DNA of 59,459 nt, from contig NMRA01000067.1 in assembly GCA_002633005.1 (NCBI GenBank), positions 729,880 through 789,338 of the forward strand, read 5' to 3'. A program made the position numbers and the translations under genes. The DNA is from Phoronis australis (taxonomy: Eukaryota; Animalia; Phoronida). Position 1 is the stretch's first letter, and every line of letters begins with the position of its first letter. The notes below the pieces were generated by a model. The model made no database searches. It saw only the letters and a program-made list of their open reading frames with translations, and was not told the origin of the DNA. Of this stretch, positions 4,763 to 44,717 are shown one piece after another.

Positions 4763-5699
4763 TTTCAAGGGCTGAAAAATAAAGTGCATTGAAAACTTAA
4801 AGAAACAGTACAATAGCATGCTTGTTAATAATGTGTTGTCGTTTTTATATCGATAAGTAATTTTTTTAGTCTTGCACCTGTCCAAATTCCCGTAAATGCC
4901 AATGGCTAATCATGGTCCAGAAACTGTATTCTGTATTAGTTAGACAGTACCAACGTCTTAACTGGAACCAGCAGAGATGGCGGACATCCCATAGGACTGC
5001 CATACGCTTTTCAGCAAATTATGCCTCACACTGCACGACCCAGTCTCTCAATAACTTTTTACACTCGCGACGTTGTGTGACCTGGTCTGACGAGATTAAA
5101 CTACCCAGAGGATAAAACTGAACTGGATGGAGCCATCTCAAACATGCAATATGAACTCAAGGTTTAAATTTATTATTTCCATTATTGCATGAATCTCTCC
5201 TACTTTAATAGTATATTCAATGGTTATTGTTTACAATCCAAGTATTAGTATGTACGTTAATGGAGTCGGATTGTAAACTAAAACCCAGTCAATTTTCAGC
5301 GCATCATTTGTTGTATCAAGTGTCATTCAGACTTCACACTGCCAGGTTTCCTTTCCAACAAGTAAAAACCGTGGACGACGCCGAGAAGAACGAGTTATTG
5401 ATCTATTTTAAATCAAAATACGTCATACCTAACAGTCCCCTCGCTAAATGTCGCAAGTGTAACAGTTTTTGAGAGACTGGGACGCGTTTGCGTAGGCTAC
5501 AGTGACTACAGTGTACACTCCATAGGTTACACGTCACAGAAAGGTCCAGCTTTATAAGGCTGACGATCAAGTCCCCGAATTTCAAAACACATGAAACTGA
5601 AACGTTGTCCCCACTCCCCCTCCTCTCTTTCTTTCTTTACGTGAGTGCATTTAATTTTCAACTCCTGCACTCAACCGAGTGATGTGGAGAACATTTGAC

Positions 5700-7931: not shown

Positions 7932-8079
7932 ATGGATACTCGGCGCCTGTACCGTCGTCAAGTTGCAATATTCGCTTGCCTCTACCTGGGCTATGCTATC
8001 TATGTACTCAACAGGAAAATGTTCTCGTATGTGATTCCTGTTGTCATGAAGGATTTGGACTTATCAAAAGGAGATCTTG
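7932..8079 (+). CDS. SLC37A4: SLC37A4 coding exon 1 (MDTRRLYRRQ...YVLNRKMFSYVIP...KGDL-G)
   Basis: 148 nt, donor G|GTATGA; probable acceptor at 7867 gives a 64-nt UTR part. Confidence 0.9.
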
Positions 8080-11000
8080 GTATGAATTGAGTTCTTGTTT
8101 ACCGGCCCTTTTATCCATCTGGCAGTATTCATGGCAGATGATCAGTTTCAGTTCGGTCCTTCCTGCGGACTCCGTACTTGTTCTTTTTCCAGGAAATGAG
8201 CGGTTTTTATTTCAACTACATAAAATGCCGCCGTGGCAACATTTTATAGTCAAAGTCAACTTCGACAGTACACCGAGGAATTGTTGATTTTCACAGTTTC
8301 TACTCAGACCACTTTAATTCTTATTCATATTGATCTCTGCATCCACATATCTCAGCACTAGGTCTTAGGACAAGTTGCTCTTCATCAGTTGAACGTTCAA
8401 TAATGGCCCATCCACTAGTATCAGGGTGATAGCTGATAAGCAACATCTCCCTTCCCATGTGTCATACAGGAAAAAGTGCCTGCATTACAAATACCCCTCC
8501 CTTCAGTTTCAACTCTAAATGAACTAATCAGTTTCCAAGATCAGATAACAACCCCTTCTGAGGTCTTTTATTAGAGCTCACAAGTCATAAGCCAATTACC
8601 TGGTCCCTTAGTCAACAGAACAGAAATGATGACATTGATTTTGGCTAATTTCAAGGGGAGACAATTCCAGCTTTTCACAGTGAATTCAATTTCTGATGTC
8701 AAGCAGGTTGTCACATTACTACTTATATTGTTTAATTTATTTCAGACAGTATTTTTTTGGCTTGAAATCATCTTAATGTGGTAATTGTCATTCCACATAA
8801 AAGGAAGTTACATCAATATTCCCAATATCAAAGGATACTGTCTTCTGTGATCTGTGCTAACCTATTGATAAACTACACAGGCCCCAGGCCTCTCATGCCT
8901 CAGTGCAGGCCAAGTCTCTGGAATATGCACAGCTGGAAAGTCATGATAATTGAACTGGGCATTAGTTGATTAGAGCAATCTGCACTATCTCTGTGTCACA
9001 CTGGTTTCAATTTGTGCTAGTTGATCACATGTCTACATGGTCACTTGTTCCTGTTGACTGTGATCAGCTGCCTACCTGAGCACAACTTTCTCGTCATAGC
9101 TGTTTTTGACTAATATCTTGATACCAGATAATTAAATTATGTAGCAAGGGAAAAGGGTCTCCTGTCAAATGATTGAAATAGGAAAATGTTTTTGTTCTTT
9201 TATGAAATCTCCCCATAACAATGGACTCCATATGGACATTCAAAATAGCCAGATGGTCAAGTTTTATAGGTGTTCGATGTGCCTAAGCTGAGTGTTACAC
9301 AACTGGCAGACTGTATGATAATCTTCATGGATTCAGGCATGGCCTGACCTCAGATAGATCTCTGAGGCTTGACCCAGGACTCAGTCCCCTCTTGCCTTGC
9401 TCACAGATGACTTAAAACATGTACATAGGTCAATTTGCCCACACAGCCTGAAAAGTAAAGGACATATGGTTCACGTTGCATTGCTTCGCTTATTTCGCAA
9501 TAATGATAATAAATGCGAAAATTGTCATTGTTTTCTATTGTCCAACTTTTGATTATCTTGATAACTTTGGCCACATGCTTTTTATTACATCTCTACTGTA
9601 CAAATGAAATTTTAATTTTGCTTGAGAAATTTTGCCAAAATGAAATTTCTCGTGTCCACCATATTGTGAACTATATGGACGGAGGAATTTCTGCATAATC
9701 GCTGTCTTTTTTTCACGCGAGTTATTTCATCTGCTCATGCTGTAGCTAAAGCCCAACAATGGCTATACACACAGCTGGAACCTTTATTTTCATAATTCCT
9801 TAGACCCCGTAGCCGAGATTGCTGAGTTTGTTGTTTTGGTCACAGGCATTGGTTTTGATCAAGAAGGCTGTGGTAGAACAGAAGGCTATATGCATGTTAT
9901 TGCTATGGCTGGTCAAAGTAAAGGTGACTCCAATTTTGATCAATCTGTAGAATTTGGGACAGCAAAAATTGAATTTTCTTCATTGTGAAATTTGAGACAA
10001 GGCCAATTTTGGTATTTATCATATTTCTCAAATTTCGGACAAAGTATTTTCACTTTACGGAGTGGGGTACTCTTGTTGCCTTTCCAGTGATTCTTGAAAT
10101 TGGGATGACCAATATTACCTATTTCTGGAAATTGGGACAAACTCTGTCCCAAATTGGAGAATTTTTGCCTGTGTGACTGTACAATTGCATTGCGTCTGTT
10201 AGTTAAACAACCCAAAATATTCCTCATTTGGCAAATCCAATGTTTTTGTTTGTTCAATGTTGAAAAGTCGCCATTTCCTGCTCTGCATCCACACAGGATA
10301 CACAGCTGGGACAAGTTAGCACTCCCATATGTTAAACCACATATTTTAGAGGGATGTGTAAATTAAATAGTTTTGCTTGCTGCACCTTTGAAATTGCTGG
10401 GTGCAGCAACCTCAGCTAACCCACATCATAATGTGCCGATTGTTTATCTTATGGTAATGAGCATGTTTATATGTTTTGTTGCAGGTCTGATAAGCAGTTC
10501 ACAAACACTGGCCTATGCAATAGCCAAGTTTGCACTGGGTGTTCTCTCTGATAAGTTCAGCTCAAGAGTTCTCTTCATTATGGGATTGGTCTTAACAGGG
10601 CTGGTCACTCTTATCACATCATGTAAGAACACACTTCTTCCTTCACTTGACTTGATTATGTTGCCTTTCTGAGAACAAAGAGTTAACTTGATCCATACTG
10701 ATGACAAAGAATTAGTCAGAAGACCTATTGTGTGAATTAAACTTCCTAGTAGGCATTTGGTACACCCAGGAGGAATGTATATATACTGTAGATATATTGT
10801 TAAAATTAGACCCTAATTTTGATTTGTTTATAATATATACATATACACATACATATTCATATGCATATGCATACACATATTCATATGCATATGCATATAC
10901 ATATACATATAAATATATGTATTTGCAGATGACAGCTTGAATATTTTTCTATAAAGCAGCTATGGAACCTCTGTTCTGTCGAGGGAAAGAGCTCTTGATT

Positions 11001-14000
11001 TAGGCCACTTATCGCTATGAAACTTGTGACAAAATTTTCTGTACTCCAATAACATGTGGTTCATGAGCTTGGAAAGAACTGACAGTTTGTTATTGCTGAG
11101 ACCACACCCAGCTCGACACCATACCCAACTCACACCATACCCAGCTCATAAAATGACCTGCTGTGATAAGCTAAGTTGTTGAACCAGAAGCGTGTTCAAC
11201 AGAGTGAGCGCCCGCTAGCGTGTACTCGCGAACACAAGGAACAGCTCCTGAACAGCTGTGAGCGCTCACTATGCGATCCAGTATGGCGACTCTGAAGCAG
11301 ATTGTGTTGAACGTGTTAGCCGATGAGCTTAACACTAACAGTCCTTCCTATGGCATACTGAGCGATAAATATGATTAATCTTTTCCAATAATTATTAATA
11401 TCGGCAGCCCAATTGACAATAACCGTGAAGGCTTTGGCCCGACAAGAATCGGAAATTACGTCGAGGAAACTGTTCCTCGCTACAGCGACCCGCAATTTAA
11501 GTCGCAGTTTCGGATGAGTCGGTCAACTTTTGAGGTTAGTTTTCGTGTTGCAGAACCATAATGGGTTCATATATGTTGCAGACGTGAAGCCTTCGCAGGA
11601 CGCCATCTTGGAAATCTAAGCGAACATGCTCTCGAGGTTGTTCGCGAGCGCTCGCGAGCGCTAACGTGAACACAGCTGTTCAGGACGAGGGCGCTCAAAT
11701 CGCTCGCGGGCGCTCACTCTATTGAACACGCTTCTGGTCTCCAGCAATAATCCTGCTGAGCCCCCATGCCAAGAATTGTAGATGACACTTGGATTACCTC
11801 AAAATCCAACTGTGCCTGGTGGTATGGTAAATTGACCCAACTATGTTGCACCCCCCTCACTGACAGAATTAATGAGGAACATATTATTGCAACTTTAGCT
11901 TGTAAAAGTCACATTTCTTGTCCATTTTTCAAAATTCAAAAACCTAATCATGTGCGTTTATCACGAACTATTCAAATATGCTATTTAAAAACTTTCAAAA
12001 CGAAAGCAAATTTAAAAATACTACTGTCGCCCCCAATGTGTTTGTGATGGGTTTCATTGTCTGGAGAATGATAACATCACAAGTCTGAGGCAATTTACTT
12101 AACCACAACAGCATCATAGGCGGATCCAAGGGGGTTGGATCCAAGGGGGTCGGACCCCCTTTTTCCCTTGATTTTAATGATATCAAATCTAGAATCTTCA
12201 AATTGTTGTCTTGGATACCCCTTTTTCAAAAAATGCTTGATCCTACCACCTTTTTTAAAATCTGGCTCCGCCACTGTGCATGGTGTCTTTGATCTGAACG
12301 GGCAGATTCTTTGGTGCTCAAGCTGGTCAAGTTGCCCAATCTCGACCAGTTACTGTGTCAACTTGTATTTTTCCTACGCCGTTATCACCTGTAATGCGAG
12401 GAACAAGCTAAGACCACTTTCAGAACTGTGATTTAAATCAAAAGTTGTACGCTGGTATGTAGTCGTTTTAACATGTAAGTTGAGATACATGGAAAAGTAA
12501 TTAATTAATTAGACAGATGACTTTACTAATGTATTGTGCTAAAATATTCTTGTGTATGATTGTTGTAACAGGTAAAAGGCCATTATATCTGTACAGGAAG
12601 ACTTCTTGAGATATGTTCTTTTGCAAATTTAGAAAACATGCTTAATAAAACACCACAATAATTCTGGTGTGCTGGAAACATTTTGTCAGCTCCAGGACTT
12701 CATCGGTTGTCCATATGAAAAGACGTAACAAATTAGTGGATTTTGTCTATGGCAAAGTTACTCACTAGTGGCACTGATGGTCATTTTTCAAACTGAGCGA
12801 CGGCTGTTGGCTAATAAGCATCCGCTGACGTCACTGAAAATTTGGAGACACGTATAACTCAGTGCCGTGTTTCGTAGATGCAAGAATCTAGCATGTTTGA
12901 TCGTGTGTTTCAGTTATAATGCTTCATGAAACTTACGGTAGTTACGTTTTTGCACTTTTTTGGCCTACGCAGTGCAGGCTTGGTGTTTTGGGCAGTGAGA
13001 TTTAACTTCAATGTAAATATCTGTGTGTCGATTTGATGCTATTGTAGCTCACTTCAATGGTGAGCTCAGCTGGCAAGCACTGTTTTTTCTCATATGGTTT
13101 GTAGCAAAAACATGGGGCATGTAGTAATTCCCACCATGTTTAATTTTTTTGCTCAAGAAAATGATTCATTGTGGTTGATATCTCAAATACATTTGATGTC
13201 TGATGCACTGTAATTGTATGTATTTTGAGACGAAATTGTAGTTTGTTCAGTAAAGCTAGCATCATCACATTTGTGTGTGGGAGGTCATAGGTCAGTGGAA
13301 CAATTAAACCACCTCTTTGATCTATGTGAATGTCACACTGTAACTTCACAGTATACCAAACCAGAGCCTCAACACAGTTATGTAATCAACTGGTTATCAT
13401 CAAAGTTATCTGTAAACTACAGCTTGTGCTGTGTTGATAATTTTCATATTTTCCAAAGTTCTCAATTCTGTTTGCATGCACTTTCAATGTTGCCTATCAT
13501 CGGAACTCAACTGTGTACTGTTTTTTAAATCATTAAAACTTGTATGCGTAGGGCAGTTTTGAAATCACTCTGCTGTCTGTGGCATCACCTGTTAGTAAAG
13601 GACACTCCCATTACCATGAAAAATATTCTGTAGGGTTGTGTTTTCTTGACATGATTACTTGTTCTATTCTTATAGTGACAGAGACTGTTTTGGTGTTTCT
13701 CCTTGTCTCCTGCCTACAGGGGGCGTGCCAGGGTCTGTGTACACCGTCCCTTGTCATGCTATTCTGCAAGGTATCTTCTTGAGTTTCTGTCATAAGAAGA
13801 GGAATTATTAAACACTTCGTAGCTTTGCGATCTTTACATCATGATAACAATTCCTTCAAATTTCTTTTATTAACGCCTCCTTCCCATTGCAGGTTAGTGT
13901 TAGGTGGATTTTGTTTATCTGTTGTGATTACCAATCTGTATACCATCATATACGCAGCCACTATATGTGTAACTAATCTTTTAACTTATTAAACTTTGTA

Positions 14001-17000
14001 GTGAGTGCATTTGCCAATTAACGTCACAGAGGTGCCTGTGTAATTCATTTGCACCCAGTAATACAGCTCGAACCAAGGATTTTGTATGTGGGGGGAGGAG
14101 GCTCATCAGGACACAAACTTTGTGTGCGCTTGACATTCCTTCAGTACAGGGATGTAAAAGTGACTCGGCAGGGGAAGTCCAAACCTCTAGTCCCTGTTTG
14201 GATCCACACCTGGTTTTTATTGTCACTCTTTATTTCTGACTTACTACTGGGCGGCTCGCAATTCACCAGTTGGTGTAGCGAAGTGAGGGCCGAGCTCAGA
14301 AATGCTTGCATTCAGGTAGATATGTGTGATGCTTGAACTACAGACGTTCTGTGCTGTGTTTTGTGCTCTCAATTAAGTGTTAAAATGAGGGATTTTTATT
14401 CTTTAACGCCACCTGGTGAGTATCAAGTTGCCCATTTTGGGTGCAAAATGCACTTTTGTTCCGTTATCCACTTGAGTTCTGTCCAGTTGTAACCTTGTGT
14501 TTCCATGACTGTTACAAGTAATGCTCTGTTTCAAGCATGCGTTACTCTCTCAGTTGCCAGCTTTGTGTTTTAACCACTTTCGTGTGCAGAATACTGCAGT
14601 CTAAGGTTTGAAGAAAATTGCGGAACTGCTTGAAATGATGCAAAAGTAAAATTACAATGGGTGCATCTAGAAAAGATACATGAAATGCCTGGCTGTTCTT
14701 GCAAGAATGCTGTTGTTTTTTTATTTGTGAAAGAACATATTTCAAGTCAAAGATAATTGGTTTAGATAAATTGGTCTTCATAGAAAATATGTCCCTGTGC
14801 ATAAATCGTTGCAGTCTGCAGCATTTTTATTTTGCTAGAACAAGTTTTGATGCTCATTTTTGTGTTTCTTCACAGGTGTTTCGTCTGTGCCATCCTTTTC
14901 TTTTATGATGTTTTTATTGGGCACCACCAGTGGATGTGGCTGGCCTGCCTGTGCTAAAATCTTAAAGAAGGTCAGTCGCATATACACTTCCTAATGTTGC
15001 TCTACACTCTTAGTGTTTCAGTGGCGACCTGCATCATTTATCTATGAACGAATTATACCTAAGGCATACTGGTTTTCGTCTTGCTTATAATGCTTGTGGT
15101 GCTTCAAAACGCTTTCCTGTTTTAGAAAGTAAAAAAACAGAGTGGGTGTTGGAAAAGCTGTTTTGTACTTTTAACTGTAACAGTCTCTTACCAGATTTTA
15201 AGAACCATTCACCTCAACTGAATGACCAGCGTCAAAATGGTTCTCAAAATCCAGGATGCCCAGTAAGTGGCTATTGGTTAGCTCTTTTGCACTTCTTTTA
15301 CACTTAGTTTCAAAGTGTTATGTTTAAGTGATTTAGTGTAGTGATTATTACTTTGATCAGTCGATTTTACTTGCAGCTGTACAGAGGTACTCTGCCATTT
15401 CAGGAAGTCAGCATGCCAGCATTTGTTACCATTCTTATGCACCCACGTATATATGGTAAAGTTTCCTCAAATTCGAATGTCCAAAACTGTCATTTTTGCA
15501 TTTTTCAATCCTTCATTGTATTGCCTAAAATGTTTTAAGATTTCATTGTGTGTTGATAACAGCTGTATTATATAAGGTTTCAAATAATTGAGTAAAATTA
15601 TGTTGTTGTTTACTCTTGTTGAAAATTTCACTGTTTCGCCATATTGGGTTCTAATTCGAAGAAACATTACCGTATGTATATGTGGCTGTATTATACTGTC
15701 TTCCTGTCCATCCAGCGTCCGCTGCTGTACCTCCGAAACATCTTGATAGAAGTTTGTGAAATTTTACTGACATGCTTCTGGCATAGATGGGCCAAATGGG
15801 AGAGTTTGGAAACAAATCTGACTCCCAGTGTGTCCCCTTGTAGCAATTTTTGTTTTTTTACATCTGTCTCTATTTCGTTGGAGTGCCTTGATGGATTGTC
15901 ATGAAATTTGGCAAATAGGGATGGATTCAACATACGCTGTGCCACTCGGTGGCCATTTTTGCTGTTTTTTCTGTTTTTTGACGTCTGGCTCTCTTTCAGC
16001 GAAACCGCTCTAAGGTTGATTATGACAATTGGTGTATATGTTCCTACTGAGAAGGAAAGCTGACAAAGGTTTTGGACAGTGCTGACTACTGTGGCGGCAC
16101 TTCCTGGTGGCAGTTTTTTTTGCTTCCGCGGATGCGTCGCATGAACCCCTTGCATGAACTTTGTTAAATTTAGCATTAAGTGTATCTCTATGAAAATGCA
16201 AACAAATGGCAGCGGCTTTCAGATGAACCCAACTACCCCATTTGGTTCCTTGAAGAGTTTTTCGAAAAATAACACATTGCTTTCTAGGAAAGAGAAGATA
16301 GCACTCGAATGGATTCGACGTATTATGTCACCCTGTGGTGATTTTTTTATTTTTGAGTCTGGTTTTGGCATCTACCTTTCTAGTCACTCTAAGAATCTTC
16401 ATGCAATTTGGCATGTGGATGTGTAAGTACTGGATTTTGGGTCCAAATTCGACTAGTGGCAATTTTATTTTGTTTGCATTTGCCTTGTTATCTATCAAAT
16501 TCCTTAATGTATTGTCATGAAATTTGACAAATTACTTACTTTGAGGTAGACGATAGCACCTGCCATTTCAGTTAGATTTGACCTTTGTTGCACCTCCTGG
16601 TGACCTTTCTGGGTTTTTTTGTGCCTTCCTTCCCTTAAAACCTCTTGAAGAATCATGGTGAAGGCATGTGTGTTCCTATTGAGGAGAGCATTTGTGACTT
16701 GTTTTGCACTCTCTATTATTAAGTTTACTTGCATTGCATTATGGGAATGTTTAAAATATTGATCATCTCTGTTATCTGTGCGGTGCTTACGGTGGGTGCA
16801 TACCAGTGGTCCGCGTTACCACATTCCAGCAGTCCCCTTTCTTGATATCAATAGGCTCTGAATGTGTGATGTCACACCACCCTGAGCTGTCTGAAGAGTC
16901 CACCAGCCTTTGCTTTAACTATGACCACACCTCTGGGAAATTGCAAGGGTGCAAAACTTGTAATAATTGTTTTATTACCCCTTATGAATTCTGAATAACC

Positions 17001-20000
17001 CAGCCCAGAATACATGTATGCCAATCTGTATGGTTCCCAAATGTTCTAGATGGGCATTAGAGACTTGTTTTGCGGATTTTTTTTTTAACGGAAAACGTGT
17101 GTAATGTAAATGAACAAGCTTCCTCTGAAGTTTCTGTTACTACTTTGGTCTAGTTGCTAGTAGTATTTCCGATTCTATGGTGTATTATTGTTTTCAGTGG
17201 TATTCCCCATCTCAGTTTGGTAGTGTCTGGGGTTTTCTGTCTTCTTCCATGAACTTGACCGGCGCTGTTGGGCCTATGTTGGCTACATATCTGTCACTTC
17301 ACTATAGTTGGCAGACAAGCTTACAGGTGGCAGGTCAGTTGAGTATATTGGGAAAGTTATAGTGGTACTGCATGCATTGTAATAAGGAGTCATGTCTGTG
17401 TAAGTGCTCCTATGTTGTTAGATGGACACAGCAACTGTTGACATCCATGCCGAGTATAGATGTTTTTGCACAGTCCAAGGGCAATTCAAAGTCTATTTTT
17501 GCAGTCAAATCTGCAGGTTTAAGCCAGGCCTGAAAATATCAGACACTAGGCTGTAATGACCAAGACAATAGCCCAGTTGCTATAGTAAGTGCCAACAAAG
17601 GCTGGCTGTGACAACATTACTTCAACTTTACAACTAGTCCATTACAGGCTCACTAGGTATGCTTTCAAAAGCTAAGGCTCTGCAATGCATTCAAGTTTAA
17701 TTACTAATTAGGTATCTTATTATGTGGTTATTTAGACGTATGCAACGAAATCATCAGTCGCATTGACAAAGCAGCTGCCAGGACCATTACCAGGTCTGTG
17801 TGCTGACGTAGACCCCAAAAAAGTCGCGTGATAACTCTAGCTTTGTTGAATTCACAAAGTTCGTGCATCTACAGAATGCAGCTTAGGTAACCCGGTTTTT
17901 GACCTGCTCCTTTACGACAGGGCTCAAATCTTAATTTGAAATACACTGAGAACCTGATGACCTTAGTATTAACTAAGCAGATATGCAAAATGCTCGATAG
18001 ACAAAATTGAAAACAGTCAAAGATATCAACAGAAATGTTGGGAGAGACCTGTTAAATTAGATAAAGTGTTTCCCTGTTTATCTTAGGTGTTGTCTCCCTT
18101 GTGTATGCTGGGCTGTGTGGATTGGTTCTGCACGATTCTCCATCAAGCATTGGGTTTGAGGAGTTTGTCACGAAGGATGAAAAGAAAACGTCAAATGGTG
18201 AGTGATTTGGCATCAGTTGCTGGATATGAGGTACTCTATCATAACATTCTTTTGTGTCTGTTTTTATCTGTATGTTCACACATTACTCACCACATTTTTA
18301 TCAGATCGACACAAAATTTACACACACCATGTGTCTCGTCAATACTTCGAGGCCTTTTATTTGGGGTTAAAATTGGATGCAAGATGACTCTGTGGTGGCC
18401 ATTTTTCGCTGCGCTGTCACTTGACATGCCGTGAGAATAGTGTTTCCAAACCTTGCTACACCAACACCAGGCTAGTCAAGGCTCTTTACCCAAGCCAAGC
18501 AGCAAGTCAAGTTGATTCATTAAGACATGCGTGAGTTAATGGAGCGTGTAATTTTTGTTAGAAAGTACTGCCTCTGTAACTACTTCCCCTGATTTAGGTT
18601 TATTGTATTGGTGACACAAAGGGTATGATAATGCACTGGCCATCTAGGTGATTCTGGTGTGTGTGTGGTGTAATTTATTAAGTAACTCATAAGTCTTGAG
18701 GGATTTTTGTGAGTGTGTAGATCTCTTTAACCGCTTCCTGGGGTATGCCATCCATTTGCAATAACGTTATTGTTCTTGAGGTATTCAAGATTTTATAACA
18801 ACTGACTTTTATTGATTGATTTCTAATGCTGTAACTACAGTCTGTGGATCTTAATGAGAGTGAATTGATCTGGTCAAGAGCTACAAGGAGTGTATATTCA
18901 TTTCCCACTGCTACATTTTCAAGTATTCCAGATTTACTGATTACTATAGGTCCAATGGTAGTATCATACTCATCTGGGTTACCACCCAGGGTGCTTAAAT
19001 TGGGAATCTAAAAAAATGAGTGGGGTGGGCGGAAAGCCGAGCATGGGCGCTTAAAACTGAAAAATTGAATATTTCGAGGGCGGGCGGTAAGCCGTCAGCA
19101 TGGGCGGTAACTGGGACAAGTATAGTATGTTTTTGAGGCTTTCATGTTTTTGTCCTCCCGGTGTTCAAGAACAACTTGGGTTCTGGACCTTTCCTGTGAT
19201 TCGCAGGACCGATCAACTAATTTACACCCAACATGTAACTGATCAATAGTAGCTCAGAGATGTCTTTGGTGAGGGACTCATCACTGTCGCTGATATTCAT
19301 AGTTCATTGATTCTAGAATGGAATTAGTTTTGTATCATCTTTTCATCCATCCCTTCATTTCGTTCACTAATTAGAGGTCTTTAATTTCTTCATTAGTTTG
19401 TATACTTTGCTAATATTGATTAATTGTGTTAAAGGTTGAGGTTTTGTAGCAGACCGAGCAGTTCTAAGGTTAAGCCAAAGGCCAATGAAAGCAGAGCTGG
19501 TCTCCGAATAAAAATGCTGTTTGGCTTACTCTTAAATATTCCCATTAGCACTGGAATTGCTGAGACAATAAGATGTCCTTGTCAGGACAGATTCATTGGA
19601 GTGTTATTGGAAGTCGTGTTGCTCTAATCAACTCCTAAGAGTTCGGGGGGAGGCTTTCCCCGCGACCTTTGTGTTGTCAGTGGGATCATGTCGTTTTCAA
19701 AGATTTTAGTCTTAAAAAATGATACTAAAATTTTGAAACATAGGCAGTAAACTGAATACTCTTATCTTAGGCTGTGCAAAGGGTTCATTTTCTGACTTGC
19801 CCATTATCTACATGAGAAAAAAATCCTTGAGTGTCAAAGTTTTTTCAAGGTTTATTTGCTGGTGACAGCTACCAGATTATCTATATTCTGAAGCTTGCCC
19901 GGGGATTTAATAAGACATTACTATTTTGTGTGAACACCCATAATTTAAAAGATCCATAAAATTCTAAGCCACTATGGGGATTAATTATACTCCCTCCAAG

Positions 20001-23000
20001 CCCAAAAATTCAGAGAGCAATATCATGGTTTACCGTATCTTTCAGATGATTCAGAGTCGAAGCATGAGACGACCAGTGTGGTGGATCTGTTGAGGAGTCC
20101 TTACTTGTGGACCTTGTTCTTTGCATACATGCTGGTCTTTGCTACTAAGACGTGTCTCCAGGACTGGGCACAGCTCTATCTCATTCAAGAACAGGGCAGG
20201 AGTGTACTCATGGGTAGGGATGTTACATTATCCTGGGTACAGTTCAATAATGCTAAGTACCTCGCTAGAAAAACAAGATCTCACAAGATTCCTAGATTAA
20301 AGTGACTATATGTTGAGTTTTTTTGCCAAAGGTGTATGAATTTGGAAGTTTGTATTGGACCATAGCAGTCTTGCCACGATATGCTTGATATCAAAGCTGT
20401 ATGTACTATTTTAGACATTCTCTAATTCTGTGGTATCAACATTTTTATGTTGTTGCATGTCCTGACCCACTTAACTAGTGTATTTCAATTTAATTTAATT
20501 GCAGTATCGTATATTTTAGTGAGCTTTTGGAAATTGCTGCCCTGCAGCCCTTCTCGCACACGCAGGAAAAGTAATTACGCACAAAATCGACAACACATGT
20601 ACAGCAAAAAAGCATATTGCTTGATAACAGATGAAAATTGATAGTAATATTCATTTACTTGCAATCTTTCTGCTGATGAAACCCAGTTAATGTGATTTTG
20701 TGGAAGATTCTATGTTTGGAAGACTAGTTGTTCTAGTTATCAAATTGTACTTTTGAATGTGGTTTTCATTAATGTCACTCTTAGTTTCTCATTCCGATCT
20801 AAAATTGAGTGTTTTAAAAGTAAGTTTTATTAAACTGATGTTCGGCTTGGGAAGATTCATTTGAGGATACTTTTCAGGTAGTCGTAAAATGTCAGCAGCT
20901 GCTTAAAAGTGTATTTTCACAACTTCAATTTTGTTTCACAGGTAGCTCTTTTGTCAGCAGCTTCGAATCAGGCGGTTTGGTGGGCAGTTTTTTAGCTGGA
21001 TTCTGGTCAGATCGCATGGTATGTCTGTTTGTGCTTGCTTGTGTGTGCATGTGTGTTCGTTTCCTTCTTTTAACAAGTATTTATATCATCCATGTGAAGC
21101 TGGTTAACATTCCAGGCTTGTCTATTCACTGATCCACAGGGGGTAATAAAAGATTTATCTTCTTAGCCATTACCATAAACCTTTTGTTAAAGCTGTGATC
21201 ACAATGGGAAAGCATTAAATTTGGTGTTGCATATCTTTCAATGACAAAATGGAGAAAATAAAAGTTTGCCTGTCTGCCATATTGTGTCCTAAATTCAGTG
21301 GTTACTCTTTACCATGCTCAGTCTAGTGACTCATTGACGTAGAAGTTGTTAGTATTTGTGAAATGACCATTGTAAAACCTTGTCTTCACTGACTGAAATT
21401 CATCGGGACTGTCAGACCTTGCAGATTGTAAGTCCGCTATTTAGACTTCTTGTGCAGTACACACTTGTATGTAGTAATTTACTTCAACTAAAAGTTGGTC
21501 AGTCCAAATGAGAAACTTTAGAGATAAGCCCTTGTCATTCTCTCCTGTTGGAAACTGCTGGTCTTTCAGTCTTTTCAAGATCAAACTGTTCTGGTTTGGA
21601 AGACTGTGTGTCAATTTTTTTTTTAAAAATCATAAAGAATCTCCAGTTCAACTACCATACTTGACTGAACCTGTTGGCACGGCAGTACTCTGAGCTGTTA
21701 AAGAACCTATATTTAGACATTGCATGATTTGTTTGGTAAACAACATTCCCAGAATAAGCTCTTTGAAGGTGGAGATAAGAAGACGAGTACCCATCGTAGT
21801 TTTGCTAACAGTTTTCCGTGACATTTTCAAGCTGAGTTAAATATTCCTCAGTGATTTACTGAGCCATGTTACATGTATCTATTGAGCTTACTCTACTTTA
21901 CTGTGGAAATGTTTTTGATTATCGCTACTTCAGTAAATATCTTTCCCTCAATCATATAATGTTGAAAATCTGACAAGTGTGTGCAATCTTGAACTTGTTG
22001 TGTACAAATGCTGGGAATAAAATCTTGTGGCCAGGGCTTAATCCTCTTAGCAACACCACCTTTGGCAACACTCCCGTTTTGGAAGATCAGTAAAAGGTTT
22101 AGAGTTTGGTAAAATCTCACCAATTTCAAACACTAGAATTATTGCCAAAATGCTCTTTCTTTGTTTTCCCAAGGCCTTTAACACATTTGTTAATGCTCAT
22201 AATTCTGAAAACTTTGTCTGAAAGCAGCTGTGGCACAAAACTTGAACATGGAAAAGGGTTAAAGTTAGTGCTACTTATGTGTCATGGAAAAGATGAGGAA
22301 ACAAAATTTCACTGGTCGGCCGTGTTGTGTCCTAAATTGGTGCGATTTTATCCTACGTATCAATGTATAAATTCCCCATCTGGACATAGGTTTGTTCATT
22401 GTTAAGGACATTGAACTAAAAGGATTTAGCCAACATACCAGGATTAAATAGCCCCCTGATGTGGTAATGACTTAATGAGATACAGTATAGGACAACATCT
22501 GGTAGTAACCTCCCTCACAAAGTAACCCAGGGTAAATAAATGGAGCTGATTGTATGGATTATTACATGGGGAGCCTGTTTAGACCAGGCGGGTGTGGGAT
22601 TTGGAGGATTATTCCAGCAAATCTTCTGTAGGATCACTCCTATTGGGTTACAAACACTAGACAACTGACAAAACATAAGTGAAAATATTCATGTGAAGTG
22701 TTGCTATTTCTTACACATGCATTCTGGGCAAGCTAGCAGTTTTCAAGGCTAGTTACATGCTTGATACATTACAAATTCCTTAAAATCAGAAAGCCATGAT
22801 GTTATGCTCAATCCTCAGCTTATATGGACAGAGCAGATATCTGCTCTTGTGAATATTAAGTTAGGTCCTGAATTAGAGGAACTACAACTAGCCACAGCTC
22901 TCCCCATTGTTTGTTAATTCAAATGCCATAGAAGGCCCCATGACTTTTTGAAGTGCCAGAATATAAGCTCAAAACTGATTGAAACTGGAATTTGAGAATA

Positions 23001-26000
23001 CCTTAAAGGTAGAGAAAACAAAAAATGTCTGCAATGCAAAGCAACTTTTCCATACATGGTCGTGTTAAAAGTGTCCAAACAAAGAAGTCAGAGAAGTGCT
23101 GGTGATGTATTTGTGGGATTTTTCTCCATGACTTCAATAAACATGTTGAAAATGACCCCTGATTTAAAGGCGAAGGCAACCTTTTTCCATGTCATTTTGA
23201 GCTAAAATAAGTTTGGTTGGTTATCCTAGACATATTTCCCACTTAATTACAGCTTTTCGTAATTTTATTAATTACTCGTCCGCTACTGCGGAAGTGACGT
23301 TTTAGGAGACAAGCATTTCCTGCCACTTGGTTTTGCGTAGACGTTACCGTGCGAATCTGTTCTATTCTACTTTTGTTTTGTGCTGTTTTTCAACAATTGT
23401 CGCCACCACTTACCATCGGCGAGTATTCTGCGGCAAGATAGGTTAGTAGAGAACTCAACTACGTTGGATTTAGGGAATGTTTAGTGTGTTGTAAGCTGTA
23501 AATGGCTGAAGTCGGTGACCCGTATCACAGTGACAGTAGTGTGAGTGACGGAGACCTTCTTCACAGCAGTGGTGACGAGGATTTTTTTCACGGACATTCA
23601 GTGGGTGGGTACATGTTTGAGCCCGAGTTAACGAGGCAGAGTACGCACAGGCATAGGCAGCTGTTGAGAGAAACGAGGCGGCTACTGAGAACAGACGAGG
23701 TGACACATCTTGGTGCAAATGCACTGTGTGCGTTGTTATCCATACCTCAATGGAATGCTTGTGCTGTTCAGAGTTCGACGAGGCCAAGCCACTACTGGAC
23801 ATGGTTAAGTGGACCTCCGGCATACCACGGACACAGGAACAACTGTCCCGCACTCAGTTGCCAGAGTCTCCCGCGACACACTCCCACTAGATGGTGACCT
23901 GAGCACCCAAACTGCTTACATCGTGTCGTGTGACTCCCTCGCCACACACCTGGCACCTTCTAAATAGNNNNNNNNNNNNNNNNNNNNNNNNNNNNNNNNN
24001 NNNNNNNNNNNNNNNNNNNNNNNNNNNNNNNNNNNNNNNNNNNNNNNNNNNNNNNNNNNNNNNNNNNNNNNNNNNNNNNNNNNNNNNNNNNNNNNNNNNN
24101 NNNNNNNNNNNNNNNNNNNNNNNNNNNNNNNNNNNNNNNNNNNNNNNNNNNNNNNNNNNNNNNNNNNNNNNNNNNNNNNNNNNNNNNNNNNNNNNNNNNN
24201 NNNNNNNNNNNNNNNNNNNNNNNNNNNNNNNNNNNNNNNNNNNNNNNNNNNNNNNNNNNNNNNNNNNNNNNNNNNNNNNNNNNNNNNNNNNNNNNNNNNN
24301 NNNNNNNNNNNNNNNNNNNNNNNNNNNNNNNNNNNNNNNNNNNNNNNNNNNNNNNNNNNNNNNNNNNNNNNNNNNNNNNNNNNNNNNNNNNNNNNNNNNN
24401 NNNNNNNNNNNNNNNNNNNNNNNNNNNNNNNNNNNNNNNNNNNNNNNNNNNNAAGGTCTCCGTCACTCACACTACTGTCACTGTGATACGGGTCACCGAC
24501 TCCAGCCATTTTCAGCTTACAACACACTAAACAATCCCTAAATCCAACGTAGTTGAGTTCTCTACTAACCTATCTTGCCGCAGAATACTCGCCGATGGAA
24601 AGTCGTGGCGACAATTGGTGAAAAATAGCACAAAACAAAAGTAGAATTGAACAGATTCGCACAGTAAGCTCAACGCAAAACCAAGTGGCGGGAAGCGCTT
24701 GCCTCCTAAAACGTCACTTCCGGAATAGAGGACGAGTAATTAATAAAATTACGAAAAGCTGTAATTAAGTGAAAAATATGTCTAGGATAACCAACCAACC
24801 TTATTTTAGCTCAAAATGACATGGAAAAAGGTTGCCTTCGCCTTTAACCAGTGCAGTGCAAAGTATTGTTCTACGGTTTTGTCTACTGACTAAGGCAATG
24901 AAGAACAGTGTGTTCAAAGAGTACACTGATGTTGACTATACTTTAGTGTTGTCTTATGTCTATGATCGAACAGTTGCTCAGTGGATTAATCCCTGCTGAC
25001 ATGGTTCTATTACGTCTATTTTGAAGCAACAAATTCAGTTGTAAGCAATGCATCATGTCAGATTTTCAACACTGCATGTTTGTGTTATGTGTGTTTGGTT
25101 TTTAGCTCGATTTTGCTTCATGAGTTACTGTCTTCTATTAGTGCCAGCCTAAACTGTGTCAGTGAAGGACACAAGACTGACTTTTTTATTTTCATTCCAG
25201 TTGAGAGTGTTCAGTCGACCGTCTCAAGCGCGCACATCAGTTATACTCGTGAATCTGTCATTGGCTTCAATTTTTATTTATCTTCTCATTTTTCGAGTGA
25301 CGGAGGATTCCTCTGAGGTAATTGTGCTCATACTTAATTGTCGTGAACCAAACCCAGTGTGAAATTGAGCTCAAGTTCACCAATTATTAATCAGTTAACC
25401 AACCGTGAAACTCTTGCCAACTCCCTAAAGGGGCTGGTACAATGTAAAATATGTAGTTGAATCCCCCTGGTGTTAATATCCCAAGGTTACTTTTCTTAGT
25501 ACTTTGATCAGTATCAACAGAGTATCAATATCAAATTGATGGTATCTGTGGTAAACTGATGCTGCAAGTCATTAAACCAAATATCATCCACACTGTTGTG
25601 GCTGAGAGGATATTGACTAACCTTACAGGTTAAAGGCTTTGATTTATGTGAACACCATGAAATGAGTGGTGTTCATTGATTACTTAAGGAAAGATTTGTC
25701 ACCACTGACTTTTCATTTTATTCTAGTTTGTGATTTTGGCTTGACATTAGAAACTCAACCTGTTTCACTGCCTCTCAGTTGTGATTTGCCAATAAATTTG
25801 CACAAGAACCACGAGCCTCAAATCTCAATATGACAAACACTGATAATAGTTCTTTTTGTATATAGAGCATAGCAGGGCAATTGCCGCTTTAGTGGTGATA
25901 GTTCTCAACAACAAACCACCATAGTTCCACTGGGTTTTTGTATCTCCTCGAATAGTGATGTGGGACAAAAGACTATGTGAACGCATAACAATGGACTAGG

Positions 26001-29000
26001 TTGATACCGTACACGAAAAAAGTAATGAGACTGTTTCCTCGCCATGACAGCTAATTGTGTGAACTACACAAATGACTGGTAATAACTGTTATGGTGGCAA
26101 AACTCTTAATTACAGCGTGGCTTAGCCACTTTCCTGTTAATTCCCCTTCATTCTCGAACATCATGGGAGACTACTCTGACGGTCATCAGGGGAGACTACT
26201 CTGACATTGAATTTAGCTTCTACCCAGCTGCCATGATGGGAGATTCTGGGTGATTCTGTCTTTTAATAACTTTGTGTACATTGGTCTCATAGGACAGAAT
26301 TAAGTCTAGACTGACGGGAGGTCCTATGTTACTTTAAGTGTAGAAAATAAGTTCTGAATGCTACTTTACAGTCTTCATCAACAGCGCTTCTACATGCTTT
26401 CCGAACTTAGAAATAACTTCAAGCTTCAGTACACTTTGAGACTAGTTTTATAGTTGTTACTGGTCCAACTCAAAAGTTTCTGCTTTAGCACGAAAATTGG
26501 GAAAGCTCACACTCAGTTCTACTTCACAACACTGTAATGAATAAGCTGACCCACATATTTCACATTCCGGGCTTGGCTATTCAGAATTTATAAGTTGTAA
26601 TAAAACATTCATCTTCTCAGCTAGGACCATAAACCTTTTGTTAAGCTGTGTTTAGTTATGCAGCAGTCTAACTGGGAGAGTTGTATGACTAAGAGCAGGG
26701 ACTGTTTTCACTGACCTTGCAAGTCAATTGCAAAATGCTTATTGTGTATGAACTGACACCCATGATTTACAACTGCAAAATTGTAAACTGCTAAGCAGAC
26801 TACTTACCCCTTCCAAGCCCCGAATCTGACTGAGCAAGTTGACCATGTCTGTATTCTTTACTTGGCGAAATAAATTTTGCCAAGTATGTTGCTCTTCCAC
26901 TAAGTTTGTTTTTTTTTTTTTGTTTGTTCGCACGATACAGGCCGCAATTTTCGTCCGATCATCATGAAATTTACACATAACACGTACTTCCGGAAGTACT
27001 GGAAGCCTATTGTTTTTCGTCGAAATCGGATCCAAGATGTGGCGGCCATTTTGTTTTCATTTTAAGATTCAAAGGCTTCTGGAGGCTACAGTTTTTACGT
27101 TCAGAGCTGAAAATCAGCACAATGAATGGCCCGGATGTGCATTACGTATATGCCGGAAATTGTTTACTTCCGGTTAAAGATGGCGGAAATATCGGCGATC
27201 GTGCATGCTCACCTCGATTTTGGGCTAAAAACGTTTTCTCCCGTAGAGGGCGCATTATGAGACCAATTCCTTCGAATTTTTACAAGTATTAGTTTCTTAT
27301 GACATGCTATTGCTTTCAAGATGGCGGTTTTGGCGCATGTTGACCTATTTTCAGCCGTACTTAGGTGCCGAAAATGACGTGAATTTTTGCATGTGGATTC
27401 TTTAACGTATACTCTTTCATATGAACTGTAACAATTTTTTTCTCAGACTTACCGTTTTCGAGTTGTTTGACTTTGAATTTCTTAAAAAAACGCAAAATTT
27501 CAATTTTTTCGAAAAATTTACGGCATTAGGCGATACCATCAGTTTAGATAGAATTTTGAACGAGCTTTCAGAAGATGTTTTCCATTTTTCGCTAGAACGT
27601 CTACTTTTTGAGTTATTTGAGATTTTCTGATAACGCTGTTCCTTTGTTGAGCGCTCTTGCTGCATTGATTTTGGTTTATCTTCTATTGAACTAGACTGTA
27701 GCCTATTTCTTATTGATTTATGACATCTAAGTTCGTCATATGAATGTTGTGATGTTGTTCATCATCGCCACCACCGTCATCATATTCGTCATCATCGTCA
27801 TCATCTTCGTCATCATCTCCGTCGTTGTCTTTTCTGTTAACTTCGCCAAGTGTCGCTCAAAACTGTAGCCTTTTTCTTACTGATTTCGGACTTCAACATT
27901 CGTCATGTGTATGTTGTTATTACTTCTTTTGTTCAACCTCGCCACCATCGTCGTCATATTCGTCATCTTCGTCATCATCTTTATCGTCATCTTCTTGGTT
28001 AATTTCGCCAAGGTTCGCTCCTCGGAGCGCTTTCATCTTAAGTGTCCCCTCTTCTACTCTGAAATTTGTTATATTGCGTGTTAACATTATTTTACTGATA
28101 GTGTCTTGTATTGTTTTAGGTGTGGATCACTTCTCTTGGCTTCGTGCTTGGCGTGTGTGTGTTTGGTTCTACCTGTTTATATGGGGTACTGGCTGTGGAG
28201 AATGCCCCCTCCCATTTGTCTGGATCGGCCAATGCTTTCGTAGCCCTGGGAGCCAATGGTAAGCACTGGTGCACTGTATGACTTCCAATACTTCAAAAGC
28301 TTTGTAATAATAGCCAGACACAATTTGGCATCAGTTGCACATACTTTGCACAGCAGTTGTCAATATTTTGTTTGCAGTTCCAAAGTTTTCTCCTGGATGT
28401 TTTCGTTACCGAGATATCCCCCCATGGAATATGTGCCCATTTTCAATATGAATTCCCATGAAATTGGCAGTATTAAGGTGACATTACCTTATGGCAGTGG
28501 TGTGACATATACCAATGGCCATGAGTCACCACTCCTCAACCTAGGGTGTTATAAATTAGTATTGCTGGATATTTATAGAACTGGCTTACTACACTAGACT
28601 GCATTGCTGAGCAGCCTTCAAGTGCAGCACACTAGGTGACATGCGAAACTTAACTGTATGAGTTATGCAGCTGTGTGGCTAATTGAATTTACAAATCCTA
28701 AATAGCCAGCATTGTGAGTTTTATGAATCTTCAGTTTGAGAAAACCAGTCATCACCGAGATGTGGACTTGTAGCCTGCAAATCAGAAAATGTTGGTTTTT
28801 AATTTGAATTTTATAGTAGCAGTTCAATAATGACTATTGTCTGTGTAAGCTCTGTGTGCAGAACAGCTTAGCTTCAAGGGAAGTTACACACCTGCAACTT
28901 AAGAATGTGTTATTGGTCAGTTGCCATGGCTACAGCAAGTGTAGGGTATGTTGGAGTGTGCACATGTTGCTCACTGGTGCTGTGTGATAAGTTCTGTATA

Positions 29001-44513: not shown

Positions 44514-44717
44514 TTACAATATGTACACAATGGTGCACAGCGAGATCACGCTGGCCAGCATTCCGGGCAGGCGGCTAGACTCGGCGCCATTACACAAATC
44601 GGTGCTGCAACACCGGGTTTCCGACTTTACGCCTGCCAAGTCAAACGAGTTTTCTTTGCAAACTGAGGAGCAAGATCTGCTGACGGTGACGACTCCAATG
44701 GCCTCGTTTCTATCTTT
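44514..44717 (-). CDS. Ly6 gene exon 3 (KDRNEAIGVVTVSRSCSSVC...RCCSTDLCNGAESSRLPGMLASVISLCTIVYIL*)
   Basis: ttatttacag| acceptor, phase 0, TAA stop. Confidence 0.9.
   Translation of the reverse strand, partial: KDRNEAIGVVTVSRSCSSVCKENSFDLAGVKSETRCCSTDLCNGAESSRLPGMLASVISLCTIVYIL

What the first reader, a model, noticed from the sequence alone, without database searches (positions are those of the whole stretch)
13676..14970. Tandemly duplicated, frame-incompatible exon pair in SLC37A4: candidate mutually exclusive splicing of G6PT
Seen: two exons, 13676-13770 and 14876-14970, are each exactly 95 nt, phase 1->0, stop-free, with a pyrimidine tract plus AG and an AAG|GT donor. Each fits between exon 2 and exon 4 to give a 436-aa protein, while including both or neither shifts the frame. 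By hand count they share only 7/31 residues with each other but 11/31 (3a) and 15/31 (3b) with the recalled human segment, all without gaps. Inference: an old duplication with both copies under selection, since an unselected copy this diverged should carry indels, stops or lost splice sites. I know of no described mutually exclusive exons in SLC37A4, but I cannot search the literature.
Basis: partly seen in the sequence, partly recalled or inferred. Interest (0 to 1): 0.9.

Follow-up and report, generated by a model that had tools for sequence, protein, structure and literature searches.

The report
Swappable binding-helix exon in glucose-6-phosphate transporter
An invertebrate gene for the glucose-6-phosphate transporter carries two old tandem copies of the exon for a substrate-binding helix; one copy is spliced into RNA, and the other, which lacks the tryptophan that grips the sugar, is likely a less-used alternative that would give an altered or inactive transporter.

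Summary
Observation confirmed. Both 95-nt exons give a 436-aa SLC37A4; both or neither gives an early stop. 3a is a real duplicate: 17 bits on a family profile, against at most -5 in 21,416 control peptides. RNA junctions show only exon 2-3b-4 (11 and 12 reads, three runs). No 3a junction is listed, but short, exon-confined reads lie on 3a in two of three runs. 3a looks selected: differing synonymous sites, intact frame and splice sites, about 0.1-2% under a neutral model. New here: 3a replaces the substrate-binding Trp118 (52 of 53 homologues) and the gate Arg126, and two predicted RNA structures could each silence one exon: a long-range helix looping out 3a and a hairpin over the 3b donor. 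Best reading (0.6): a mutually exclusive pair, 3b major, 3a a minor isoform likely poor at G6P transport. No close relative was available. This is a known kind of event; the scan noted similar pairs in other transporter genes on other DNA, none in SLC37A4, and my paper searches found none.

The parts
7932..8079 (+). SLC37A4 coding exon 1 (start codon to donor)
   Evidence: PDB match to human residues 11-49; junction to 10485 in all four runs
10485..10622 (+). Exon 2; its donor is shared by 3a and 3b
   Evidence: PDB match; junctions
12605..12638 (+). 5' arm of a predicted long-range RNA helix that loops out exon 3a (docking-site-like)
   Evidence: -36 kcal/mol with 14714-14746; 0 of 100 shuffles reach its score; mutual best partners in 10630-17190; predicted only
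13676..13770 (+). Exon 3a: duplicate of exon 3, hydrophobic helix that keeps G111, Q114, G115, P119 but has Thr for W118 and Cys for R126 (human numbering)
   Evidence: RNA depth confined to the exon in X3 and starting at its acceptor in X1, no listed junction
14714..14746 (+). 3' arm of the predicted long-range helix, 130 nt before the 3b acceptor (selector-like)
   Evidence: predicted only
14876..14970 (+). Exon 3b: the expressed exon 3, with the GWP motif (W118), C121, K123, K126; has lost N110 and Q114
   Evidence: junctions 10622>14876 (2, 1, 8 reads) and 14970>17198 (3, 5, 4 reads) in X1-X3; PDB match to human 98-127
14929..14988 (+). Predicted hairpin pairing the GWP-coding bases of 3b with the 3b donor (13 contiguous pairs, 14934-14946 with 14969-14981)
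   Evidence: -23 kcal/mol, z -3.17, 0 of 200 shuffles; the other 9 donors folded with the same offsets have z -1.08 or higher; predicted only
17198..17333 (+). Exon 4; its acceptor is shared by 3a and 3b
   Evidence: PDB match to human 128-170; junctions
18087..18197 (+). Exon 5
   Evidence: junctions on both sides
20046..20213 (+). Exon 6
   Evidence: junctions on both sides; tblastn
20942..21018 (+). Exon 7
   Evidence: acceptor junction; donor inferred from homology and frame
25201..25317 (+). Exon 8
   Evidence: weak tblastn, splice sites and frame; not tested with RNA
28120..28258 (+). Exon 9
   Evidence: tblastn and frame; not tested with RNA
33655..33836 (+). Exon 10, to the stop codon
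   Evidence: tblastn and frame; not tested with RNA

Best explanation
Exons 3a and 3b are an old tandem duplicate of the exon for transmembrane helix 4 of SLC37A4, and they are likely spliced one at a time, 3b giving the usual transporter and 3a a minor form predicted to bind and move glucose-6-phosphate poorly. Shown: the duplication, the frame logic, and splicing of exon 2 to 3b to exon 4. Inferred: 3a is kept by selection and sometimes spliced in; the default choice of 3b is set by a predicted helix (12605-12638 with 14714-14746) that loops out 3a; when 3a is taken, a predicted hairpin over the 3b donor would help skip 3b; transcripts with both or neither exon carry early stops and would be removed by nonsense-mediated decay. 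Inferred from human mutants: Thr for W118 removes the aromatic contact to the glucose ring and part of the cytosolic gate, and Cys for R126 removes a gate contact, so the 3a form would be a low-activity or changed-specificity transporter with the rest of the binding site intact.
For: Real, in-register duplicate. Age: no flanking similarity (67/200 and 55/200 bases; only 10-15-nt BLAST hits); 5 of the 6 shared codons outside the splice site differ synonymously; 45 of 53 homologues score higher against 3a than 3b does. Selection: in a neutral simulation, copies with 3a's profile score keep AG, GT, an open frame and no indel in about 2%, 0.5% and 0.1% of cases at the best-fitting distance 0.3, for indel/substitution ratios 0.05, 0.1, 0.15; of intact copies 0-2% also lack charged residues at 99-126 as 3a does; 3a has 54% GC, reached by 3% of 1,220 intron windows. 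3a keeps Q114, which 3b lost (50 of 53 homologues). RNA: in X3 four reads cover 13764, none 13801, and both neighbouring bins are empty although reads average about 145 nt; the only such isolated bins are 3a in X3 and the known spliced 3b in X1; in X1 depth starts at the 3a acceptor. The one variant listed inside 3a is synonymous (13764). Structures: of 9 exons only 3a is bracketed by such a helix (score 34 against 20-24); 2 of 75 tiles reach 34, the other being a transposon-like inverted repeat; of 10 donors only 3b's lies in a significant hairpin. Function: W118A/F cut uptake by 70% or more and W118R/C nearly abolish it (PMC12552596); W118A abolishes and R126A reduces it (PMC12857678). 13 of 14 other listed binding and gate residues up to position 300 are kept in both forms, Y25 being Val.
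Against: No junction into or out of 3a was listed in about 18-19% of three runs, against 11 and 12 reads for the 3b junctions; three weaker joints were not shown. Summed depth on 3a (6.8) is exceeded by 1 of 28 intron bins, so its level alone is not significant. In X1 and X2 all 5 reads at 13764 run through the 3a donor into the intron, and X2 needs no splicing at 3a at all. The partner of the short X3 reads is unseen. No protein sharing three 5-residue words with the 3a reading frame was found (41-133 aa only), and none of 53 homologues has a 3a-like helix. 3a has lost five residues conserved in 47-52 of 53 homologues, which decay would also cause. The simulation uses assumed indel rates and homologues as stand-in ancestors, and the exon was picked because it is intact. 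The RNA structures have no covariation support, and the hairpin window was chosen after the stem was seen. One paper finds only a 40% loss for W118A (PMC13046256); 5 of 53 homologues lack K/R126, one with Cys.
Confidence: 0.6

Rival explanations
1. 3a is a relic: once a working alternative, now released from selection and kept silent by the long-range helix; reads on it come from nascent RNA and splicing noise.
For: No listed junction. Loss of G117, W118, C121, K123 and R126. Weak donor (no G at +5). Intron depth is high relative to exon depth. A helix that hides 3a is useful whether or not 3a works.
Against: Intact frame, length and both splice sites are unlikely (about 0.1-2%) at this divergence under neutrality, though a recent release from selection is not excluded. 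The changes make the helix more hydrophobic than any of 53 homologues rather than random. A relic gives no reason for a hairpin over the 3b donor. Exon-confined reads in X3.
Confidence: 0.22
2. 3a is used mainly to turn the gene down: its acceptor is taken, and the transcript then keeps 3b (stop at codon 138) or the downstream intron (stop three codons after 3a), so it is degraded or gives a four-helix fragment.
For: In X1 depth begins at the 3a acceptor and runs past the donor to about 13876. Read-through stops after three codons; ATTAAA at 13807 and 13988. Both exons together give an early stop.
Against: A poison exon needs no open frame, no helix-like peptide and no in-register donor, yet 3a keeps all three. 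No 13770>14876 joint and no shared read end was listed. In X3 reads stop at the donor.
Confidence: 0.15
3. 3a is a chance look-alike, an allelic copy left by the assembly, or a piece of a second gene copy.
For: No PDB or Pfam hit for 3a alone; hhalign probability 2%.
Against: About 7 standard deviations above 21,416 controls and in exact splice register. 37% DNA identity rules out an allele. No other exon of the gene has a second copy in the window. RNA reads match the 3a letters.
Confidence: 0.03

Closest known systems
Tandem duplicated exon substitutions (homologous mutually exclusive exons), e.g. SLC25A3, SLC39A14 and SLC12A1 in the human catalogue (PMC8373072 supplement; PMC9741552)
   Same: Two adjacent homologous exons of equal length and phase in a membrane transporter, each giving a full-length protein; such events are enriched in channels and transporters (passages).
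   Different: SLC37 has 0 occurrences in that catalogue's supplement, where the three controls were found. Known pairs are described as mostly conservative in their substitutions; here the alternative drops an almost invariant binding residue. Use of the second exon is not shown here.
Docking site-selector and bidirectional RNA pairing control of mutually exclusive exons (Dscam, srp, MRP1; PMC6071210 passages)
   Same: An element in the upstream intron pairs with an element just before the downstream exon and loops out the upstream exon; a second structure could act on the other exon.
   Different: No competing selector before 3a stands out (best -22 kcal/mol against -36). The second structure is a local hairpin over a donor, not a second long-range pair. 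No conservation or covariation could be tested.
Human SLC37A4 / G6PT and its splice variant vG6PT
   Same: Orthologous transporter: exons 1, 2, 3b and 4 match human chains in PDB; binding residues kept.
   Different: The described human variant is a 66-nt cassette exon 7 (PMC5913288, PMC12766210; passages), not a swap of helix 4.

Membership tests
SLC37A4 (G6PT) orthologues | Sequence similarity along the whole protein to SLC37A4 | tested here: met
   PDB hits only or first to human SLC37A4 for four exons; 38-45% identity over 375-456 aligned residues to SLC37A4-like proteins; sits among them in a quick tree, with no starred placement
SLC37A4 (G6PT) orthologues | G6P-binding and gate residues, 3b form | tested here: met
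   Y21, R28, K29, Y60, K64, D72, W118, F134, W138, S142, M145, Y233, F237, K240, D285, R300 kept, K for R126, V for Y25; the H366 position reads Asn by eye
SLC37A4 (G6PT) orthologues | GWP motif with W118 and a basic residue at 126, 3a form | tested here: not met
   Cys-Thr-Pro for GWP and Cys at 126; W118 in 52 of 53 and K/R126 in 48 of 53 homologues
SLC37A4 (G6PT) orthologues | Measured G6P/phosphate exchange | not testable with these tools
   needs a transport assay
Homologous mutually exclusive exons | Adjacent exons that are homologous, with the same length and phase | tested here: met
Homologous mutually exclusive exons | Each exon alone keeps the reading frame | tested here: met
   436 aa for each
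Homologous mutually exclusive exons | Each exon seen joined to both flanking exons in RNA | tested here: inconclusive
   met for 3b; for 3a only depth shape, no listed junction
Homologous mutually exclusive exons | The two exons are not joined to each other | tested here: inconclusive
   no 13770>14876 joint listed, but the limit is 3 reads and depth is low
Homologous mutually exclusive exons | Both exons conserved in related species | not testable with these tools
   no eukaryotic genomes searchable; nearest protein 45% identical
Docking site-selector RNA switch | One site with competing partners, one per exon | tested here: not met
   one outstanding partner only
Docking site-selector RNA switch | Conserved, covarying pairing | not testable with these tools
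   no related loci
U2/U12 spliceosome incompatibility | A minor-class donor matched by a minor-class branch site close to the next acceptor | tested here: not met
   the 3a donor resembles the minor-class consensus (recalled) at 7 of 9 bases, but no such branch motif lies within 350 nt of the exon 4 acceptor or anywhere in the 3a-3b intron

The most novel reading that the evidence does not exclude
The gene carries a two-part RNA-structure switch that swaps the substrate-binding helix of the ER glucose-6-phosphate transporter for a selected, tryptophan-less helix, giving the animal a regulated second transporter with a different substrate (or an off form) from one gene, something no SLC37 family member is known to do.
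Probability: 0.3. Interest if true: 0.75.

Novelty: new member of a known kind. Interest (0 to 1): 0.5.

Why it matters
SLC37A4 gates glucose release from the ER, and W118 and R126 are residues whose change impairs the human protein. A natural exon that replaces both while keeping the helix would be a ready-made test of what helix 4 contributes to substrate choice and gating, and would show splicing used to tune or switch off the G6Pase pathway in an invertebrate. The arrangement itself, duplicated alternative exons in a transporter, is a known and recurrent kind of event.

Tried and rejected
No whole genome is held. No indexed RNA holder was listed; X1-X4 came by species label, so that blank is not used either way; X4 laid nothing on 12876-15875, which can be false. 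Word-based protein searches with exon 4 (9 candidates, none significant) and with the 3a reading frame (no candidate) found no close relative. The Atlas gave no answer. The exon-wise alignment A2 was badly aligned and not used. A first duplex scan timed out and was replaced. The careful tree did not finish; the quick tree leaves the organism unplaced, outside the starred ecdysozoan group (34 of 120 fetched proteins used). The supplements of PMC5740500 gave no hit even for the control SLC12A1, so they say nothing. Rejected: steric exclusion (the 3a-3b intron is 1,105 nt); U2/U12 incompatibility; competing docking site; pairings between the 3a-3b intron and the downstream intron (29 of 100 shuffles reach the score) and between the outer introns (86 of 100); a hairpin at the 3a donor (z -1.08). 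No fold of the spliced forms was run. Rows dropped: the profile used 28 of the 76 hits (those with a full exon-3 segment; many others begin in intron-derived sequence); searches used 53 of 54 aligned homologues (one has a gap there).
Full report
1. The observation. Both stretches are as described: 95 nt, AG before, AAG|GT after, open in the frame that begins at the third base. A 10-exon model from 7932 to 33836, built from tblastn with 15 homologues and RNA junctions, gives 436 aa with either exon, a stop at codon 138 with both and at codon 104 with neither. The junctions out of exon 7 and beyond rest on homology and frame only. Exons 1, 2, 3b and 4 match human SLC37A4 chains in PDB.

2. Is 3a more than chance? 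Alone it finds nothing in PDB or Pfam and scores weakly in hhalign. Against a profile of 28 homologous segments (chosen from the 76 hits) it scores 17.2 bits, 3b 56.0; none of 21,416 stop-free 31-mers elsewhere in the window reaches -5, and the best of 84 other AG-95nt-GT candidates scores -28.8. The match falls in exact splice register. 3a is therefore a duplicate of exon 3. No other exon has a second copy, and 35/95 identical bases exclude an allele.

3. Age and selection. The flanks share no similarity; five of six shared codons outside the splice site differ synonymously; 45 of 53 homologues are closer to 3a than 3b is. Both copies have moved from the family: 3b scores 58.7 where homologues average 82.4, having lost N110 and Q114, while 3a keeps Q114. 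In a neutral simulation (4,000 runs per distance, homologues as stand-in ancestors, assumed indel rates) copies with 3a's score stay intact in about 2%, 0.5% or 0.1% of cases at distance 0.3, and up to 8% at distance 0.15, which fits the score less often. 3a has the highest GC of the 11 exons (54%), and is more hydrophobic than any of 53 homologues with no charge at positions 99-126. This favours selection, with two limits: the exon was noticed because it is intact, and a recent loss of constraint would look the same.

4. RNA. Three raw runs (about 18-19% of each read) show 10622>14876 in 2, 1 and 8 reads and 14970>17198 in 3, 5 and 4. No joint or loose end at 3a reached the limit of 3 reads (three weaker joints were not displayed). 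In 100-nt bins the 3a bin has depth 2.45, 1.55 and 2.77, the bin before 0, 0.3 and 0, the bin after 1.93, 3.14 and 0. In X3 four reads cover 13764 and none 13801; with reads of about 145 nt their laid parts must be short, as for spliced reads. The only isolated bins of this kind are 3a in X3 and the known spliced 3b in X1. In X1 two reads cross the 3a donor into the intron and the remaining depth must come from short pieces that begin at or after 13676, as if the acceptor was used and the next intron was still present. X2 is explained by four unspliced reads. Against: 1 of 28 intron bins has more summed depth than 3a, and the partner of the short reads is unseen. My reading, an inference, is a few molecules spliced at 3a against clearly more at 3b.

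5. What 3a would change. 3a has Thr at W118 (52 of 53 homologues keep Trp; the exception is a red alga), Cys at R126 (48 of 53 K/R), and has lost G117, C121 and K123. In human G6PT W118 on helix 4 contacts the glucose ring and forms part of the cytosolic gate; W118A/F cut uptake by at least 70% and W118R/C nearly abolish it (PMC12552596); another study finds W118A abolishes and R126A reduces transport (PMC12857678); a third finds only a 40% loss for W118A and describes the GWP kink (PMC13046256); a fourth lists R126C among changes that destabilise the outward-open state (PMC13411879). The rest of the site is shared by both forms. So the 3a form is predicted to be a poor G6P carrier; whether it is inactive or carries something else cannot be told. 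One hemichordate paralogue (P0106) has Cys at 126, so that change alone is tolerated somewhere.

6. How one exon could be chosen. The 1,105-nt intron is too long for steric exclusion, and a minor-class branch site is missing. A 34-nt inverted pair, 12605-12638 with 14714-14746, brackets 3a: -36 kcal/mol, 0 of 100 shuffles, mutual best partners, not repeated elsewhere in the window, reached by 2 of 75 tiles (the other a transposon-like repeat) and by none of 8 other exons. No competing selector for 3a stands out. A hairpin pairs the GWP codons of 3b with its own donor: -23 kcal/mol, z -3.17, 0 of 200 shuffles, the only significant one of 10 donors folded alike; the window was chosen after the stem appeared. 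Together they offer one brake per exon, with nonsense-mediated decay removing errors (a mechanism listed in PMC6071210). All of this is prediction from one genome; the long pair could be two remnants of a repeat not otherwise present in this window.

7. Comparison and novelty. This works like, and probably is, a tandem duplicated exon substitution, a known class enriched in transporters (PMC9741552). Membership is unproven on two features: junction reads for 3a and conservation. I found no report for SLC37A4: searches (8 papers; 67, 20 listed; 1; 1; listings only) showed none; SLC37 is absent from the supplement of PMC8373072 where controls were found. The described human variant is cassette exon 7. 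The library lacks most subscription papers, and bioRxiv supplements were not visible. What I saw of each paper: passages of PMC12552596, PMC5913288, PMC9741552, PMC13411879, PMC12857678, PMC13046256, PMC6071210, PMC12766210; supplement searches of PMC8373072 and PMC5740500; search listings for the rest. Earlier scan notes list similar pairs in SLC13, SLC6, ABCA, ABCC, ATP7 and ammonium transporters of other genomes, none with all my search words and none like this DNA; I did not test them.

8. Verdict. Observation confirmed; interpretation partly supported. Mutually exclusive pair with a minor, likely impaired 3a form 0.60; silenced relic 0.22; mainly unproductive splicing 0.15; artefact 0.03. 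New member of a known kind; interest 0.5, rising to about 0.75 if 3a proves to be a regulated transporter with a changed substrate.

Noticed in passing
window 1799-4909, minus strand: A 1,037-codon open frame for a C2H2 zinc-finger protein (Pfam zf-C2H2), head to head with SLC37A4 about 3 kb away.
   Followed up: partly
window 44517-44765, minus strand: Last exon of a Ly6/uPAR (three-finger fold) protein with a hydrophobic tail like a GPI signal; the tail reading is by eye.
   Followed up: partly
window 11183-11738: A 556-nt element with 38-nt terminal inverted repeats (95%), transposon-like, with high RNA depth on both strands from other copies.
   Followed up: no
window 13764 and 13801: All 5 reads of X1 and X2 at 13764 carry T and run through the 3a donor, while the 4 reads of X3 carry the reference C and stop at it; allele, tissue or chance cannot be told apart.
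   Followed up: no
window 13861-13898: A strong acceptor-like site 122 nt after the 3a donor, followed at once by a donor-like motif (AG|GT), as at recursive splice sites; no read support.
   Followed up: partly
window 28120-28258 (exon 9): The position of human H366, a G6P-binding residue, reads Asn here by eye; some homologues also have Asn or Gln.
   Followed up: no
window 10485-10622 and 14876-14970: Exon 2 plus exon 3 make 233 nt, which I recall as the length of human exon 2, so the intron that frees this 95-nt exon may be absent in humans (recalled, no call).
   Followed up: no
window 47871-48137 minus; 23502-23894 plus; 48578-48949 plus: Transposon-like fragments: a reverse transcriptase piece (Pfam RVT_1) and two frames that look transposon-derived by eye with no Pfam hit.
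   Followed up: partly
P0059 and P0106: Two SLC37A4-like paralogues of Glandiceps talaboti (72% identical, same longest-contig length), one with Cys at the R126 position like exon 3a.
   Followed up: no
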